NCBI GenBank assembly: GCA_963674965.2
Contig: CAXXFL010000002.1
Location: forward strand, 576,001 to 640,000
Origin: a bacterium
GTDB taxonomy: Bacteria > RBG-13-61-14 > DATKZS01
DNA length: 64,000 bases
Direction of reading: 5' to 3'
Part shown: one piece after another, positions 42,689 through 54,659 of the stretch
How positions within the stretch are numbered: the stretch's first letter is position 1
Layout: each line of letters opens with the position of its first letter
Position numbers and translations under genes: made by a program
The notes under the pieces: model-generated
Told to the model about the DNA's origin: nothing
The model's input: only the letters and a program-made list of their open reading frames with translations
The model's database searches: none

Positions 42689-42916
42689 TCAGCTTCGGTC
42701 CGCGTCGCCCTTCTTGCCGAAACCCGGACCGAGCTTGTCCGAATGAAGCTCTCCGCCGCTGGCCCAGTTTTCGCGGTCGTGCTCCTCGATGATGACCGTC
42801 ACCCACTCGGGCTTGACCTCGAGTATTTCAACCATGGAGTCGGTCACGGCCCTGGCCAGGGCGCGCTTCTTCTCCACCGGCCTTCCCTTGGCTATTTTGA
42901 TCGTAACGATGGGCAT
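42689..42916 (-). CDS. 4-oxalocrotonate tautomerase family protein
   Basis: Catalytic Pro1 (MPIVTI), GR..EKKR.L, ENWASGG. Confidence 0.92.
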   Translation of the reverse strand: MPIVTIKIAKGRPVEKKRALARAVTDSMVEILEVKPEWVTVIIEEHDRENWASGGELHSDKLGPGFGKKGDADRS

Positions 42917-42935
42917 GTTGTTCACCTTTGAATCA

Positions 42936-42971
42936 AACGGGTAACCCATAGCTCGCCTATGTGGGCGACCG
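42936..42971 (+). repeat. Family B partial left end (B0)
   Basis: AACGGGTAACCCATAGCTCGCCTATGTGGGCGACCG is identical to the left end of copy B3. Confidence 0.85.
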
Positions 42972-43282
42972 CCAGGAAGCAGTTCATCCCCTCCGCCATA
43001 ACGGGTAACCCACATAGCTCGCCTATGTGGGCGACCGAAGGGAGCAGGTCGGCGCGTATAACTTTAATACCCGACCCGCGACTTTATATTTTCCAAGCAT
43101 AATCGCGGGAGAGCGGCAACCCCCATTCTTGGTACCACCCGACCTGCTCGCTATGCTCGCCCACATAGGCGAGCTATGTGTAAACATGAAAGCGGGCTGT
43201 CCTCCAAGACGGTTTGAGGTATAACCGTAAACCAAGGGGTTGCAATGCAGGGCCCCAAATAAATGAAGGGAGGTACAGCCCA

Positions 43283-44368
43283 ATGACAACTTATCTCGGA
43301 TTGGACGTGCATTCAAGGAGGACGGTGTTCGTGGCCCAGGAGGAGGACGGAAAAATAATCGCCCGGGGGGACGTGGCTACCGACCGCGCCGGCTTCGAGG
43401 AACTTCTCGGCCGGCTCGGAGGCGAGCTCGGGATCAAGACCGGCCTGGAGAGCGGGGCCCAGTCCTTTTGGGTCAGCGAGCAACTCTCCGAGCTGGGGTT
43501 TCACCCTTACGTGATCAACGCCGCCGAAGTGCGGGCCAAGTCGCTCCGCCCCAACCAGAAGAGCGACGGCCGCGACGCCCTCGAGATTTGCGACGGTCTG
43601 CGCCGCGATCTTTACGTCAGCCGCGTCTACGTGCCCGGCCGGTCCGTTCGCCGCCTGCGGTCCCTGCTCGGCCGCCGCCGTTTTTTCATCCGCCAAATGA
43701 CGTCCCAGGTCAACTCGGCCAAGGCCCTTTTGCGGGGCGAGGGAGTTCGAGTGTCTTTCCGCCTGAACACCGCCTCAGGCTGGAAGCGGGCGCTGGAGTC
43801 CTGCCCGGACTCCTTCCAGCGCGACCTTTTGCGGATGCACTTTCGGACCTGGCGTCAGGTCTCGGAGGAAGTCGCTCGCTTGAACAAGAAAATCGAAAAG
43901 GAGGCGGGCGCCCATTTCGCCGATGCTTATCCCCTGCTCCAGACCGTCCCCGGCGTGGGTCCGGTGACGGCGGCGACCTTTCTTTCCGTTATCGCCGACG
44001 CCGGGCGGTTCGAGCGGAGCGGCCAGGCGGTAAGCTACCTTGGACTCTGTCCGTCCAGTTGGGACAGCGGCGACCGGGTGGTCCACGGCCGTATCACCAA
44101 GCGCGGGTCCTCGGAGGCCCGCTCGATGCTGGTGGAGGCGGCCCATCACGCGGGCCGTCCCACTCACCCCCTCAACCCGTATTTCGCCCGGGTGGCGGCG
44201 AGGCAGGGTTACAAGAAGGCGGTGGTCTGCGTGGCCCAGCGGCTTTGCCGCGTCATGTGGAGAATGATGTTGGACGGCGAGGAATTCGACGCGGGCAAGC
44301 TCAACGTGACGCCCACGAGCAAGGTCAAGACGAGGAAGTATTACTGGAAGATCAAGGAGGCCGTTTGA
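43283..44368 (+). CDS. IS110 family transposase/recombinase
   Basis: DEDD RuvC-like residues (GLDVH, GLES, KSDGRDA); TVPGVG, YLGLCP...SG and ITKRG in the Tnp domain. Confidence 0.97.
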   Translation: MTTYLGLDVHSRRTVFVAQEEDGKIIARGDVATDRAGFEELLGRLGGELGIKTGLESGAQSFWVSEQLSELGFHPYVINAAEVRAKSLRPNQKSDGRDALEICDGLRRDLYVSRVYVPGRSVRRLRSLLGRRRFFIRQMTSQVNSAKALLRGEGVRVSFRLNTASGWKRALESCPDSFQRDLLRMHFRTWRQVSEEVARLNKKIEKEAGAHFADAYPLLQTVPGVGPVTAATFLSVIADAGRFERSGQAVSYLGLCPSSWDSGDRVVHGRITKRGSSEARSMLVEAAHHAGRPTHPLNPYFARVAARQGYKKAVVCVAQRLCRVMWRMMLDGEEFDAGKLNVTPTSKVKTRKYYWKIKEAV

Positions 44369-44620
44369 CTCGTTGAGGTCGCGTCCGTGACTTGGCCGGC
44401 TTGAGGGCGGGCCAGGAGGCGCGAGAATCCGTGTCACTCCAAAATAGTTTTCGGCGACTCCTTGGTAACCCGTGGCCGCGAAGGCCTTCTATGTGTATGG
44501 AGCAACGCCGGGACACCGAACGTATTCGTGAGGCTTACGACCTCTTGACCTCGAATAGATGGTTGGAGGGAGGCACGGACCGGGGGGCGCTTTTTCATCT
44601 TTCCGTCATGGGATTGACCC
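44369..44620 (+). ncRNA. Putative bridge/seekRNA of the IS1111-type element (ends approximate)
   Basis: Nested stems enclose an internal loop with GTAACCC and CTATGTG, which match both strands of the insertion target. ATAGATG matches the donor junction. Confidence 0.75.
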
Positions 44621-44841
44621 GAAACAATCCCGCCCTCCGTCCCTCGCCCGCTCGGTCCTCCGGTCATGATTCTTTCGGGTAAAGGAGGGTAGACGGAAAG
44701 AAGAAAAAGCTTTGGCAACTGGAGGATGAGACCGTCCAGGGTTGACAATTTGCTTTCATAGATGGGTTACGCCGGAGGTCCCACGCCTGGGGGCAATGAA
44801 GGTTACCTGTTGGGCATGTTGTTCCCATTTGAATTAATCCA

Positions 44842-45444
44842 TCAATTTCCGTTCCGTATATTGTTCTTGGCTTTCTCGATAAGGTTATATACTCTCCTCA
44901 CGTCATCGATATATTCGAAACTCGGGATAAATGGGCCGATGTTCCATGTAGACCAAGCCGCTATCTTCCCATTGTCAAAGTGGGCTGGGAAAAATGACTT
45001 TGCACCGAAAAATATGCTCCCGCTTCCGTCTTTTTTCTCCGAGACGCCGACCATGCGGGGAGTAGCCAGACACAACGTCAATTTATTTAATTTCATTATT
45101 TTTGAAAGAAAGATAATCCTATTTGTGGTCACGGCATAGATCGTATTCTTTCTTCTATAAGATTCAATTAATAGTCTTCCGAATGAGAAGTAGAATCCAA
45201 GTAACATAAATGGAATAGAATCAATTAAGATAAAAACGGACGGCCAGAATTTTCCGGGGTTTACCAAAATGCCTATTTCTAAAATGATTAAGAAAGAAAA
45301 TATATAAGTGCCGAAAAAAAACATGATTACTTCATCTGCATATGGCCTCATCTTCAATCCGGCATCAGGATAGCCGTACCAGAGTATCTTTTCCTCTGGG
45401 AGCAGGATATTTTCGACGTCTTTTTTGCTTAATGGCCTCATCAA
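44842..45444 (-). CDS. Membrane protein with bacterial PH-like domain
   Basis: L.PEEKILW.G.P, two TM helices, YAVTTNRII, DGSGSIFF; AT-rich. Confidence 0.8.
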   Translation of the reverse strand: MMRPLSKKDVENILLPEEKILWYGYPDAGLKMRPYADEVIMFFFGTYIFSFLIILEIGILVNPGKFWPSVFILIDSIPFMLLGFYFSFGRLLIESYRRKNTIYAVTTNRIIFLSKIMKLNKLTLCLATPRMVGVSEKKDGSGSIFFGAKSFFPAHFDNGKIAAWSTWNIGPFIPSFEYIDDVRRVYNLIEKAKNNIRNGN

Positions 45445-45479: not shown

Positions 45480-45669
45480 AACGGGTAACCCACATAGCTC
45501 GCCTATGTGGGCGACCGAAGGGAGCAGGTCGGCGCGTATAACTTCAATACCCGACCCGCGACTTTATATTTTCCAAGCATAACCGCGGGAAAGCGGCAAC
45601 CCCATTCTTGGTACCATGCGACCTGCTCGCTATGCTCGCCCACATAGCAAAAGCGATGGGTTACCTGTT
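45480..45669 (+). repeat. Family B repeat copy B2 (190 bp)
   Basis: Near-identical core to B1/B3; ends AACGGGTAACC / GGTTACCTGTT. Confidence 0.92.
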
Positions 45670-48397: not shown

Positions 48398-48622
48398 AAC
48401 GGGTAACCCATAGCTCGCCTATGTGGGCGACCGAAGGGAGCAGGTCGGCGCGTATAACTTCAATACCCGACCCGCGACTTTATATTTTCCAAGCATAACC
48501 GCGGGAAAGCGGCAACCCCATTCTTGGTACCACCCGACCTGCTCGCTATGCTCGCCCACATAGGCGAGCTATGTGGGTTACGCCGGAAGTCCCACGCCTG
48601 GGGGCAATGTAGGTTACCTGTT
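48398..48622 (+). repeat. Family B repeat copy B3 (225 bp, empty IS target)
   Basis: Uninterrupted equivalent of B1; contains CTATGTGGGTTAC at 48569-48581. Confidence 0.93.
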
Positions 48623-52658: not shown

Positions 52659-52814
52659 CGCCGCCAAACGCGAGAGCCCCGGGGACCTTATGGGCTTCCG
52701 TGGTCCGGGACGTTAGCCGTTCCGCGGCGTGCCTATCTTTGAACAATCCCGCGACCGTAAAAAGGATAGTTAAGAGCCTCTTGCAAAATTCCCGCTTTGG
52801 AGTGCGGCGGCTTG

Positions 52815-54262
52815 TGTACAGACCGGAGACATGCTTCACAAGTGTTCGGGCACATAGGTAACATATTTCCTCGCTTGCTCGCGCTCCTGCTATTGACCTA
52901 TTTTTCCTCGACCTAAGTTTATCTATGCATCGATCACGTGGCCAGTCAAGGGCGGCGCAGCCGTCCCGCAGGGATTTACCCTTGACGGGCCTCGTGGAGA
53001 TGCTATCGTCCTCATGGTCGAGAAAACCTTTTATCACGTTTGCCTCCAGCTATGGTCTCGCAGATCGACGACCATGATCCGTTGGCGGCAGTAATAAACC
53101 TCGATCACGCCGTCCACTTGTGTATTTCGCAAGCCGACCTTTTCACCAACGAAGGCCCGCCCCACCGGATAAAACTCGCCTTTGATTCTAACCGCCCCGC
53201 CCGGGTTCACCTTGCAAGTCGGCCAATCATCCCGATACCAGACTTCGGGCAGAGTCTCGGGATAGGCAAAGGGGCTCATCGCGTAACGGCTGGCCGGCGT
53301 GTTCATGTCCAGGGCCTCGTGGGGACGTTCATGGTTATAGCAGTCGCGAAAACGGTCGAAGGCTTTCTGACAGTCGTTCAGGGCGCCGAAGTTGCGTCCC
53401 CTTATCGCCTCCTCCTTAAGGGTCCGGTTGAACCGCTCGTTCTTGCCCTGGGTCTGGGGATGAAAGGGACGGCCGTGGCTGATGCCGACGCCGAGCCTGA
53501 TCAGCCAGGCGCTCATGTAGTTGTAACGCGAGTTCGGCGCGCAGAAGCTCGATCCGTTGTCGGTAAGTATGCGGCTGGGCAGGCCGTAGCGCATGAAGAC
53601 CGGCGCCAGGCTTGCCCGCACGGTGTCCGCCCGTTCGTTGGAGCAGGCGGTGACCGTCAACGCGAACCTGGAGTGGTCGTCCACCACGGTGAGAGGGTGA
53701 CAGGAACCGGCCGCCGTCGGAAAATGTCCCTTGAAATCCATCTGCCACAACTGGTTGGGAGCCTCTCGTTCGAAACGCTTCATGGGACCGCGAGCCTTGC
53801 GCTGGGCGTCCCGCAGCCTGCCGTTGCGGTCGAGGATCGCCGTGATCGTGCTCGGCCTTGGCACTTCGTCGTGACCAAGATCGATCAGCCGCCGCTCGAT
53901 TTTGCGCCCTCCCCAGGTCGGATGCTCGTCGCGAACCGAAAGCACCAACTGCTCGACCTCCGGGCAAACACGCTGGGGAGATCGCCTGGGACGGCGGGAC
54001 CTGTCACATGCCCAGTCCTCTTCACCGCTTTGCCCACGGCTGATCCACTTGTAGCCGGTGCGGCGACTGATACCGAATCGACGGCATAACTCGCTTATGT
54101 TGGAACCTGGCTGCATCGCTAAATAAACAAAATCCTTCCTCTGAGACACTTCGGTAACCTCATTCCATGGCATCTTTCTTCTCCTGTATTGACATACAGA
54201 AGAATGTACCAACTGTTACCCATGTCTCCGAACACCTGTTACCCATGTCTCCGGTCTGTACA
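52815..54262 (-). mobile_element. IS481-family insertion sequence (about 1448 bp)
   Basis: Perfect 19-bp TIR TGTACAGACCGGAGACATG, TGT...ACA ends and subterminal repeats TGTTACCCATGTCTCCG. Confidence 0.93.
53034..54173 (-). CDS. IS481 family transposase
   Basis: MPW start, HTH LCRRFGISRRTGYKW, and DDE residues WQMDFKG, TDNG, GKNERFNRTLK. Confidence 0.96.
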   Translation of the reverse strand: MPWNEVTEVSQRKDFVYLAMQPGSNISELCRRFGISRRTGYKWISRGQSGEEDWACDRSRRPRRSPQRVCPEVEQLVLSVRDEHPTWGGRKIERRLIDLGHDEVPRPSTITAILDRNGRLRDAQRKARGPMKRFEREAPNQLWQMDFKGHFPTAAGSCHPLTVVDDHSRFALTVTACSNERADTVRASLAPVFMRYGLPSRILTDNGSSFCAPNSRYNYMSAWLIRLGVGISHGRPFHPQTQGKNERFNRTLKEEAIRGRNFGALNDCQKAFDRFRDCYNHERPHEALDMNTPASRYAMSPFAYPETLPEVWYRDDWPTCKVNPGGAVRIKGEFYPVGRAFVGEKVGLRNTQVDGVIEVYYCRQRIMVVDLRDHSWRQT

Positions 54263-54659
54263 CTCGACGCCGCTTTTCTTCCGAGCGGCTTGACGCGAGG
54301 CAAGCAGGTGTATTAATAGGCCTTGTCAAGCCAAGGCCATCGAAAGCGGTCTCAAGCGACCGCACTCCAAAGCGGCTATGCCGCAAAGAAAAGTACTTTT
54401 GCAAGAAGCTCTTAAGTGTATACATAACTTTGCCGCGGAGAGGGACGCGCAATCCCCAGCATACAAGCTAAGACATGCCATTATTCTTTTCATCTTGATT
54501 TTCTCTTATCATTATTGATAGATGCATAAGTAATGCGGCGGTTTAGGGCAAGAACGGCGTATTTCTGATCTGTGGATGCATGCTCTGAGGCTTGACCTCG
54601 CGACTATGGCCACATGCCGGCACATCCGCTTTGGGGATGCTTACATTATATTGAATCAA

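What the first reader, a model, noticed from the sequence alone, without database searches (positions are those of the whole stretch)
44431..44516. RNA-guided recombinase aimed at a REP repeat: target guides readable in the IS 3' non-coding region
Seen: the empty site (B3) is GAGCTATG-TG-GGTTAC, and the IS sits at the TG. Downstream of the transposase, nested stems GTGTC/GACAC, CGGCG/CGCCG and CTCC/GGAG close an internal loop capped by GGCC-GCGAA-GGCC. One side of the loop is GTAACCC (44465-44471), the reverse complement of the right target half. The other side is CTATGTG (44489-44495), identical to the left half including the core. Established: IS110/IS1111 recombinases use a bridge/seekRNA with two such short guides, encoded downstream of the gene in the IS1111 group. 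Inference: this is a complete and apparently intact programmable system with target CTATGTGGGTTAC that uses a multicopy repeat as a safe harbour. The guide, an occupied site and empty sites all lie within 6 kb. The class is known, but this specificity and repeat host may be new.
Basis: partly seen in the sequence, partly recalled or inferred. Interest (0 to 1): 0.9.

Follow-up and report, generated by a model that had tools for sequence, protein, structure and literature searches.

The report
RNA-guided insertion sequence aimed at a repeat

Summary
Window 43179-44762 is a 1584-bp IS1111-group (IS110 family) insertion sequence. It has four internally identical copies in the genome, an intact 361-aa DEDD transposase and a bridge/seekRNA module 3' of the gene (44430-44579). 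The two sides of the target loop, GGTAACCCG and TTCTATGTG, match the insertion site CTATG-TG-GGTTAC in a REP-like hairpin repeat.

- **Insertion sites:** three of four copies sit at CTATGTG|GGTT and the fourth at CAATGTG|GGTTAC. One of the three is outside any repeat.
- **Covariation:** in 54 metagenomic relatives with readable ends, both loop sides match the element's own flanks (at least 6 nt exact) in 27. Mismatched pairings do so in 5 of 2816.
- **Structure:** stems show compensatory changes at 10 of 16 pairs.
- **Closest relative:** it is 64% identical in protein, carries the same guides and sits in the same repeat.

Not shown: RNA expression, protein binding or reprogramming. REP targeting by such elements is already published (ISPa11, IS621, ISPpu9/10). 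Verdict: correct reading, new member of a known kind, modest interest.

The parts
43160..43180 (+). Left part of the interrupted REP-like hairpin (CCCACATAG-GCGAG-CTATGTG). Left target half CTATG is 43174-78 and the crossover dinucleotide TG is 43179-80.
   Evidence: Sequence. The repeat family is listed (about 25 copies of the hairpin core; the other hits in that list belong to an unrelated IS).
43179..44762 (+). The whole insertion sequence, 1584 bp, written as TGTAAAC...AGA. With a shared TG it can equally be written 43181-44764.
   Evidence: Four copies in the genome show no difference in alignment columns 300-1800, and their flanks diverge exactly at these ends.
43179..43197 (+). Left end: 7-nt extension TGTAAAC (43179-85), then the subterminal inverted repeat ATGAAAGC (43186-93). 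Relatives extend the repeat to 12 nt, ATGAAAGnGGGC.
   Evidence: The 7-left/3-right extension rule is taken from PMC11187229.
43283..44368 (+). Transposase gene, 361 aa, intact.
   Evidence: PF01548 (63 bits) and PF02371 (78 bits). NCBIfam NF033542 'IS110 family RNA-guided transposase' scores 219 bits against a cut-off of 140. D8, E56, D95 and D98 are invariant in 36 homologs. The motif GLCPSSWDSG is at 254-263.
44430..44579 (+). Bridge/seekRNA module: target-binding loop followed by donor-binding loop.
   Evidence: Covariance model R1 hit of 99.3 bits, E = 3.9e-25. [quoted passage not shown] Pair counts are.
44452..44510 (+). Target-binding loop. Stems CGGCG/CGCCG and CTCC/GGAG; 5' side GGTAACCCG (44464-72), complementary to the top strand (T/C)GGGTTACC; hairpin 44474-86; 3' side TTCTATGTG (44487-95), identical to the left half plus TG.
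   Evidence: Helices 1 and 2 have compensatory changes at 7 of 7 pairs.
44516..44566 (+). Donor-binding loop.
- Outer stem CCG (44516-18) / TGG (44564-66).
- 5' side AACGTATTCG (44519-28), a candidate guide for the left end.
- Hairpin TGAGGC...GACCTCG (44529-53), with an extra GACCTCTT shared only with L023.
- 3' side AATAGATGGT (44554-63), in which ATAGATG (44555-61) is identical to the right end at 44758-64.
   Evidence: The right-end guide changes to ATAGGCG or ATAGGTG in L025 and L031, whose right ends read AGG.
44742..44747 (+). TTGACA, a perfect -35 hexamer facing outward, 15 nt from the right end. In a circular form it would lie 17-18 nt from TG-T-AAACAT of the left end.
   Evidence: Sequence. 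TTGACA is present at this place in all 15 close relatives printed. The junction promoter is known for IS1111/IS110 elements. The promoter scan itself called nothing.
44752..44770 (+). Right end: inverted repeat GCTTTCAT (44752-59), extension AGA (44760-62), TG (44763-64), then the right target half GGTTAC (44765-70).
43005..43017 (-). Empty target site CTATGTGGGTTAC in a neighbouring repeat copy.
   Evidence: C2:619005.
45485..45497 (-). Empty target site.
   Evidence: C2:621485.
48569..48581 (+). Empty target site in a paralog of the occupied repeat unit.
   Evidence: C2:624569.

Best explanation
Window 43179-44762 is an active or very recently active IS1111-group insertion sequence of the IS110 family.

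**Proposed mechanism.** Its DEDD/serine recombinase is guided by an RNA of roughly 140 nt transcribed from the 3' non-coding region (about 44430-44579). That RNA has two internal loops.

- **Target loop.** It reads the chromosomal site. Its 5' side, GGUAACCCG, pairs with the top strand (T/C)GGGTTACC. Its 3' side, UUCUAUGUG, pairs with the bottom strand opposite TTCTATGTG.
- **Donor loop.** It reads the joined ends of the excised circle. AUAGAUG matches the right end plus TG, and GUAUUCG matches the left end imperfectly.
- **Recombination.** It occurs at the TG dinucleotide and places the element between CTATG and TGGGTTAC, at the 3' foot of a REP-like hairpin repeat.
- **Expression.** Circle formation would bring the TTGACA in the right end next to a weak extended -10 in the left end and so drive expression.

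**Shown here:** the anatomy, the copy number, the insertion sites, the conserved RNA structure and the guide/target covariation.

**Inferred from published relatives:** that the RNA is made, that it binds the protein, and that it directs recombination.
For: 1. **Family.** PF01548 plus PF02371. NF033542 scores 219 bits against a cut-off of 140. The C-terminal domain matches the solved ISCro4 and IS621 transposases at E about 1e-10.
2. **Activity.** Four copies have identical interiors and lie in four different places. A fifth, truncated right end abuts GGTTACGCCGGAGG.
3. **Site specificity.**
   - Flanks are GAGCTATGTG|GGTTACGCC, GGAGCTATGTG|GGTTACCTG, GGGCAATGTG|GGTTACCTG and TCAATTCTATGTG|GGTTCACG.
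   - The last site is not in a repeat. Its left flank matches 9 nt of the 3' loop side (TTCTATGTG), two more than the repeat does. This argues for sequence reading rather than hairpin reading.
4. **Chance.** Both 7-mers occur within 40 nt in 8 of 20000 shuffles.
5. **Covariation with targets.**
   - Among 28 relatives with both flanks, both loop sides match the element's own flanks by at least 6 exact nt in 18. Cross pairings do so in 2 of 744.
   - With the model-based alignment the figures are 27 of 54 against 5 of 2816.
6. **RNA structure.** On 68 distinct sequences, 98% of cells are paired and 10 of 16 pairs show compensatory changes. None of 500 shuffles reaches the observed value, and slid controls reach at most 53% paired.
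7. **Module position.** It is found downstream on the same strand in 74 of 80 loci. Four of the six misses have under 160 nt of downstream contig.
8. **Closest relative.** L023 (64% identical in protein) has the same two guides and sits at the same position in the same repeat.
9. **Donor side.**
   - ATAGATG equals the right end, and this guide changes together with the end in L025 and L031.
   - The left-end guide pairs better with its own end than with other elements' ends: mean 5.75 against 4.27 of 9.
10. **Agreement with the literature.** The guide order, the 7/3 terminal extensions and the downstream non-coding region match the published IS1111 description.
Against: - **No RNA evidence of any kind.** Rfam has no matching family.
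- **Fold energy is unremarkable.** z = -0.38 for the loop region and -2.1 for the whole 405 nt.
- **The left-end guide is weak in this element.** It forms 5 Watson-Crick pairs plus 1 G-U of 9.
- **The right inverted repeat is short.** It matches the left one over only 8 of 12 positions, where most relatives match 10-12.
- **A wobble at the crossover.** The 5' loop side reads CG where the site has TG, so one G-T wobble must be assumed.
- **Half of the relatives fail the strict test.** 27 of 54 fail the exact 6+6 test, mostly through single mismatches. L064 shows no match at all on its right side.
- **One relative lacks the module.** The same-order homolog L002 has a short non-coding region and no hit to the RNA model.
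- **No promoter called.** The promoter scan called nothing in the element or across the natural end-to-end junction in L031.
- **Relatedness.** The relatives are related to one another, so the cross-pairing contrast overstates independence.
Confidence: 0.88

Rival explanations
1. The transposase recognises the REP hairpin itself, by shape or by protein-DNA contacts. The matching 7-mers in the non-coding region play no part in targeting.
For: Three of four full copies, plus the truncated one, lie in or beside the palindromic repeat. Many relatives also sit in palindromic sites. Before 2024 this was the usual view of REP- and attC-targeting IS1111 elements (recalled; no call supports this).
Against: - One copy sits in a non-palindromic, non-repeat site that still reads TTCTATGTG|GGTT.
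- Loop sequences change with the flanks across relatives that have unrelated targets.
- The crossover is at the foot of the hairpin, not on its axis of symmetry.
- Published relatives need the RNA for transposition (PMC11187229, abstract and sections read).
Confidence: 0.04
2. The architecture is right but this particular lineage is no longer autonomous. A degenerate right inverted repeat, a weak left-end guide and an 8-nt expansion in the donor hairpin have crippled donor recognition, so the four copies are relics.
For: - The right inverted repeat matches over 8 of 12 positions.
- The left-end guide forms 5 Watson-Crick pairs plus 1 G-U of 9, near the low end of the family range of 3-8.
- An extra GACCTCTT lies in the donor hairpin, absent from 34 of 36 aligned sequences.
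Against: - Four copies without a single internal difference lie at four sites, so transposition was recent and happened with exactly this sequence.
- The 8-nt expansion is shared with L023, whose protein is only 64% identical. It is therefore old and has been tolerated.
- The open reading frame and the conserved catalytic positions are intact.
Confidence: 0.07
3. The two 7-mers are leftovers of target DNA captured inside the element, or a coincidence, and are not functional guides.
For: The element lives in the repeat, so carry-over of repeat sequence is conceivable. No call supports it.
Against: - The two halves are separated by a conserved hairpin. One half is inverted and they lie in the reverse order relative to the repeat.
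- The same layout holds in relatives with unrelated targets.
- Shuffles give both matches in 8 of 20000.
Confidence: 0.01

Closest known systems
ISPa11 (IS1111 family, Pseudomonas aeruginosa)
   Same: It targets a fixed position in a REP sequence. Its non-coding region lies downstream of the transposase gene. Its seekRNA co-purifies with the transposase and carries a top-strand complement 5' of a bottom-strand complement (PMC11187229, passages and sections read).
   Different: The host, the repeat and the target sequence differ. Protein relatedness was not measured here because no reference sequence was available. The best plasmid-borne relatives of the window's protein are at most 33% identical. 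Here nothing has been tested experimentally.
ISEc11 / ISXne4 (IS1111 family)
   Same: Subterminal inverted repeats with a 7-nt left and a 3-nt right extension. A short 3' seekRNA is sufficient for movement. Natural retargeting occurs by changes in the two loop segments, which is the same kind of covariation seen here across relatives (PMC11187229, sections read).
   Different: [quoted passage not shown] Its transposase is 339 aa against 361 aa here. The published minimal 82-nt RNA carries the target matches, whereas here a conserved donor loop follows directly.
IS621 (IS110 group, E. coli)
   Same: A DEDD plus serine recombinase. A bridge RNA with separate target and donor loops, each reading both strands around a 2-nt core. 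The natural target is a REP element. A junction promoter forms in the circle (PMC11208160 passages; PMC13626964 passages). The C-terminal domain matches at E = 4e-10.
   Different: In IS621 the RNA is encoded upstream in the left end and the guide order is reversed. It has only a 2-3-bp terminal repeat and a CT core, against TG or CG here.
ISPpu9 / ISPpu10 (Pseudomonas putida)
   Same: IS110-family elements that occupy REP sequences at a defined dinucleotide (PMC12288879, introduction read).
   Different: They belong to the IS110 group and lack long subterminal repeats. ISPpu9 carries extra small RNAs (Asr9, Ssr9) and forms no junction promoter.

Membership tests
IS110 family (DEDD RNA-guided transposases) | [quoted passage not shown] | tested here: met
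   PF01548 at 63.2 bits (cut-off 29) and PF02371 at 78.5 bits (cut-off 21.3). NF033542 at 219.3 bits (cut-off 140).
IS110 family (DEDD RNA-guided transposases) | Conserved acidic tetrad, and an S/T-G in a GL-P----SG motif | tested here: met
   D8, E56, D95 and D98 are invariant in 36 homologs. G254-L-C-P-S-S-W-D-S262-G263 is seen. The motif definition comes from PMC11187229. The catalytic role of these residues is inferred, not tested.
IS110 family (DEDD RNA-guided transposases) | Insertion at one specific sequence | tested here: met
   Four of four full copies lie at C(T/A)ATGTG|GGTT.
IS1111 group | Subterminal inverted repeats (usually 11-13 bp by PMC11187229; 7-17 bp by PMC11208160) | tested here: met
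   ATGAAAGC / GCTTTCAT, 8 bp perfect here. It is 12 bp, with 10-12 positions matching, in 15 close relatives. This is short by the first definition and within range by the second.
IS1111 group | Asymmetric terminal extensions, 7 bp on the left and 3 bp on the right | tested here: met
   TGTAAAC before the left repeat and AGA after the right repeat.
IS1111 group | The longer non-coding region lies downstream of the transposase gene | tested here: met
   104 nt upstream (43179-43282) against 394 nt downstream (44369-44762).
IS1111 group | Transposase related over its full length to that of IS1111; length 330-350 aa | tested here: inconclusive
   No IS1111 reference sequence was available to compare. 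The length is 361 aa, just outside the range quoted in PMC11187229.
Bridge RNA / seekRNA | Internal loop whose two sides pair with opposite strands of the target and overlap at the crossover; in IS1111 types the top-strand complement comes first | tested here: met
   GGTAACCCG (44464-72) and TTCTATGTG (44487-95) against CTATG-TG-GGTTAC. Covariation is 27 of 54 own pairings against 5 of 2816 cross pairings.
Bridge RNA / seekRNA | Second loop that reads the donor (joined element ends) | tested here: inconclusive
   The right-end guide ATAGATG is exact and covaries. The left-end guide forms only 5 Watson-Crick pairs plus 1 G-U of 9 here. The family mean is 5.75 for own ends against 4.27 for other elements' ends.
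Bridge RNA / seekRNA | Conserved secondary structure supported by compensatory changes | tested here: met
   98% of cells paired, 10 of 16 pairs with changes on both sides, and none of 500 shuffles as high.
Bridge RNA / seekRNA | The RNA is expressed, binds the transposase and is required for transposition | not testable with these tools
   No RNA run is listed for this sequence. This needs bench work.
REP (repetitive extragenic palindromic) elements | Short imperfect palindrome, many copies, extragenic, often in inverted pairs | tested here: met
   A 9-bp stem, CCCACATAG/CTATGTGGG. There are about 25 copies, several in inverted pairs about 150 bp apart. The window copies lie between open reading frames. 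Copy number is low for a REP family.
REP (repetitive extragenic palindromic) elements | Associated REP-type Y1 transposase flanked by the repeats | tested here: not met
   Five PF01797 matches in the genome. None is near a copy of this repeat in the list. 'REP-like' is therefore the safer name.

The most novel reading that the evidence does not exclude
In this IS1111-like clade the dinucleotide at the crossover may not be a shared 2-nt core of the IS621 kind.

- **The data.** In 13 of 54 relatives the left and right junction dinucleotides differ. In 9 of the 10 where the RNA can be read, the left junction carries the dinucleotide written in the donor loop. In at least six of those nine the right junction carries the dinucleotide written in the target loop, and in the other three the second base agrees.
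- **What it suggests.** Both strands may be exchanged on the same side of that dinucleotide, which would be a real mechanistic difference between IS1111-type and IS110-type bridge recombination.
- **A possible link to the host.** Four of ten strictly matching repeat copies lack exactly this TG, against none of four in an IS-free relative. These could then be immune alleles, or scars of element activity.
Probability: 0.15. Interest if true: 0.55.

Novelty: new member of a known kind. Interest (0 to 1): 0.3.

Why it matters
As biology it is ordinary. RNA-guided IS110/IS1111 recombinases and their liking for REP elements are in print.

It still has some practical value.

- **A clean natural example.** The guide, an occupied site, empty sites, a one-mismatch site and an off-repeat site all lie in one genome from a phylum with only 13 species-level genomes in the held set.
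- **A reusable family.** The clade yields a covariance model and about 50 natural guide/target pairs. These could seed an Rfam family, since none matched, and offer new orthologs for bridge-recombinase engineering.
- **A mechanistic lead.** Natural insertions with unequal junction dinucleotides may bear on how IS1111-type elements exchange strands. Siddiquee et al. 2024 leave that question open.

Tried and rejected
- **Rfam**, permissive search of 42800-45000: no match.
- **Genome-contig scan** with the single protein: only two relatives, at 28% identity, so of no use for covariation. A search of the host phylum (13 genomes) gave two partial homologs at contig ends.
- **L002:** it has a short non-coding region with no recognisable module.
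- **RNA evidence:** no RNA holder is listed.
- **Laying the three DNA runs (contigs only):**
  - A joint from 43178 to 44763 skips the element. It has only 28 nt on its shorter side, and a near-identical empty paralog lies at window 48555. I do not count it as excision.
  - The contig depths are not copy numbers.
- **Promoter scan** of the element and of the natural end-to-end junction in L031: nothing called.
- **Hamming scan** of the genome with the 18-nt guide-implied site: uninformative, because the outer positions add noise.
- **Source names** for the closest proteins: none given.
- **Handshake-type dinucleotide** after the right-end guide: own mean 1.23 of 2 against 0.90 for cross pairings, with 10 of 31 matching at both positions against 18% in cross pairings. 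This is too weak to claim.
- **REP-type Y1 transposase** next to the repeat: not found.
- **First end-calling script:** it mis-placed the right end of the window element and of L023 at an internal TTTTCAT. This was corrected by requiring the RGR extension.
- **Papers:** supplementary files were not opened. The ISfinder-wide tables of Durrant et al. and Siddiquee et al. may already list close relatives.

Full report
**Observation.**
- Stems: GTGTC 44431-35 / GACAC 44512-16; CGGCG 44452-56 / CGCCG 44506-10; CTCC 44458-61 / GGAG 44499-502.
- Hairpin: GGCC-GCGAA-GGCC at 44474-86.
- Loop sides: GTAACCC at 44465-71 and CTATGTG at 44489-95.

The minimum-energy fold of 44425-44525 reproduces this nesting, but it is no more stable than shuffled sequence (z = -0.38). 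The 405-nt non-coding region as a whole gives z = -2.1. Rfam has nothing here.

**The element.**
- An open reading frame at 43283-44368 encodes 361 aa with PF01548 and PF02371. It passes NCBIfam NF033542, 'IS110 family RNA-guided transposase', at 219 bits against a cut-off of 140.
- Its C-terminal domain matches the solved ISCro4 and IS621 transposases at E about 1e-10.
- D8, E56, D95 and D98 are invariant in an alignment with 35 homologs. The motif GLCPSSWDSG is at 254-263.
- BLAST against the laid genome finds four full copies. Their alignment shows no difference between columns 300 and 1800, and the flanks diverge at TGTAAAC on the left and AGA on the right.
- The element is therefore 43179-44762, 1584 bp. 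It has a 7-nt left extension, the subterminal inverted repeat ATGAAAGC/GCTTTCAT, and a 3-nt right extension.
- The short upstream region (104 nt), the long downstream region (394 nt), the inverted repeats and the 7/3 extensions are the features by which Siddiquee et al. 2024 and Durrant et al. 2024 set the IS1111 group apart (PMC11187229; PMC11208160).

**Insertion sites.** The four copies are flanked as follows:

| Copy | Left flank \| right flank |
|---|---|
| window | GAGCTATGTG \| GGTTACGCC |
| C6:741645 | GGAGCTATGTG \| GGTTACCTG |
| C2:7285 | GGGCAATGTG \| GGTTACCTG |
| C6:787623 | TCAATTCTATGTG \| GGTTCACG |

- The first two lie in a REP-like hairpin, CCCACATAG-GCGAG-CTATGTGGG, of which about 25 copies exist, several as inverted pairs.
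- The third lies in a second, degenerate site 35 bp downstream in the same composite repeat, with one mismatch in the left half.
- The fourth is not in a repeat at all. Its left flank agrees with 9 nt of the 3' loop side (TTCTATGTG), two more than the repeat does.
- A truncated fifth right end also abuts GGTTACGCCGGAGG.
- The empty 13-mer CTATGTGGGTTAC occurs 7 times against 0.14 expected. Six are in the repeat list. The seventh lies in a BLAST match to the repeat unit. Three lie in the window, at 43005, 45485 and 48569.

**Is the match more than chance?** In 20000 dinucleotide-preserving shuffles of the 383-nt non-coding region, a 7-mer of the left flank and a 7-mer of the reverse-complemented right flank occur within 40 nt of each other 8 times.

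**Relatives.**
- The host phylum holds only 13 genomes in the collection, with two partial homologs. A single-protein scan of genome contigs was unproductive.
- The protein database holds 789 homologs at E <= 1e-30 among the candidates scored, the best at 64-66% identity.
- An alignment of 36 of them pulled 80 metagenomic loci.
- Fifteen share the repeat ATGAAAGnGGGC/GCCCnCTTTCAT and have both ends on the contig. Read by eye, in 14 of these 15 the 5' loop side is the reverse complement of the right flank and the 3' loop side equals the left flank. L064 fails on the right side, and in L031, whose left flank is another copy's right end, only the right side can be read.
- Counted by script on 28 elements, both sides match the element's own flanks by at least 6 exact nt in 18, against 2 of 744 cross pairings. 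Eight of the 36 aligned rows were dropped, four for missing ends and four for short flanks.
- After building a covariance model and aligning 74 hits, the count is 27 of 54 against 5 of 2816. Twenty rows were dropped for the same reasons.
- The relatives are related to one another, so these contrasts overstate independence. The targets are nonetheless very diverse.

**RNA structure.**
- RNAalifold on 36 sequences recovers the inner stem and hairpin of the target loop, and an outer stem and hairpin of a second loop.
- On 68 distinct sequences, 98.0% of cells pair and 10 of 16 pairs carry changes on both sides. None of 500 shuffles reaches the observed values, and sliding the partners gives at most 52.6% paired. 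That alignment was fitted to the model, which favours the structure.
[quoted passage not shown] Four of the six misses have fewer than 160 nt of downstream contig, and L002 has no hit.

**The donor loop.** It lies directly after the target loop, at 44516-44566.
- Layout: outer stem CCG/TGG; 5' side AACGTATTCG; hairpin TGAGGC...GACCTCG; 3' side AATAGATGGT.
- ATAGATG (44555-61) is identical to the right end plus TG (44758-64).
- In L025 and L031, whose right ends read AGG, the guide reads ATAGGCG and ATAGGTG.
- The 5' side pairs with the element's own left end at a mean of 5.75 of 9 positions, against 4.27 for other elements' ends (32 elements). The window element scores 5 plus one G-U.
- The donor hairpin carries an extra GACCTCTT found otherwise only in L023, so it is an old, tolerated feature.

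**Closest relative.** L023 (64% protein identity) has GTAACCC and TTCTATGTG in the same places. It sits at GCAAGCTATGTG|...|GGTTACCCG inside ...TTCGGTCGCCCACATAGGCAAGCTATGTG, which is the same repeat family. A same-family genome without a detectable copy of the element (G001) also has the repeat. The pairing of element and repeat is therefore older than the species.

**Expression.**
- The right end carries TTGACA at 44742-47, 15 nt from the element's end. The same hexamer stands there in all 15 close relatives.
- Joined to the left end it would face TG-T-AAACAT at a spacing of 17-18 nt.
- Junction promoters are documented for this family.
- The simple scan called no promoter, so this step is inference.
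- No RNA run is listed. The contig-level lay-out added nothing decisive.

**Comparison with the known.**
- The element works like ISPa11 and ISEc11 (IS1111-type seekRNA) and, with the order of parts reversed, like IS621.
- REP targeting is documented for IS621, ISPa11, ISPpu9 and ISPpu10.
- The specific target and repeat sequences were not found in the searched literature. One search searched three strings in the full text of 8.1 million PMC papers and 0.36 million preprints. Supplements were not searched.
- I file it as a new member of a known kind.

**Verdict.** Confidence that this is an RNA-guided IS1111-type element whose loop sides are the target guides is 0.88. Interest is 0.3.

Noticed in passing
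window 42947-42969 (-) and genome-wide (C2:267993, 618941, 624403; C6:849032; others): Repeat alleles lack exactly the TG at the crossover (CTATGGGTTAC, 7 copies). This leaves a 2-nt bulge in the hairpin. They occur in both flank subtypes of the repeat. Under one strict pattern the host has 6 copies with TG and 4 without. The IS-free relative G001 has 3 with TG, 1 with CA and none without. They could be slippage products, immune alleles or scars. The numbers are too small to tell.
   Followed up: partly
relatives L026, L028, L029, L031, L039, L051, L062, L072, L095 (junctions): In 13 of 54 relatives the dinucleotides at the left and right junctions differ. In 9 of the 10 that can be read, the left one equals the dinucleotide in the donor loop, and in at least six of those nine the right one equals the dinucleotide in the target loop. 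This hints that the crossover lies to one side of the dinucleotide rather than across a shared 2-nt core.
   Followed up: partly
window 44464-44472 and 44487-44495: The two target guides write the crossover dinucleotide differently: CG on the 5' side and UG on the 3' side. With G-T and U-G wobble, both TG and CG targets could be read. The same arrangement recurs in relatives.
   Followed up: partly
window 44580-44740: A further stretch of about 160 nt lies between the donor loop and the right end (...GATTGACCCGAAACAATCCCGCCCTCCG...CGGTCATGATTCTTTCGGG...). It is conserved in L023, L003 and L058 and in two genomic remnants, but is absent from relatives with short non-coding regions. Its function is unknown.
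   Followed up: no
L031:1-70: This metagenomic contig begins with a right end joined directly to a left end (…GCTTTCATAGG-TG-TAATGATGAAAG…). That is a circle or tandem junction of a related element caught in an assembly.
   Followed up: no
window 52775-54411: A separate insertion sequence of the IS481 type (rve integrase core plus the IS481 leucine-zipper domain, 392 aa on the - strand). It has 9 copies in the genome at 98.8-100% identity.
   Followed up: yes
genome C7:766950-767300, C1:9760-10060, C5:429700-430000, C7:667100-668480: Truncated or rearranged remnants of the same or a sister element. They include a right end in another copy of the repeat and a diverged donor-loop fragment at 87% identity.
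   Followed up: partly
genome, 10 or more loci (e.g. C2:65722, C7:7177, C3:20695): A second, unrelated IS110-family element (27% protein identity to this one) is present in at least ten copies, and two further single homologs reach 29%. Their RNAs and targets were not examined.
   Followed up: no
relatives L039, L063, L068, L080, L090 and others: Many relatives of the ATGAAGACGGG-repeat subgroup sit in perfectly palindromic targets such as AACTTGCCCCG|CGGGGCAAGT. In these the two guides are nearly the same sequence.
   Followed up: no
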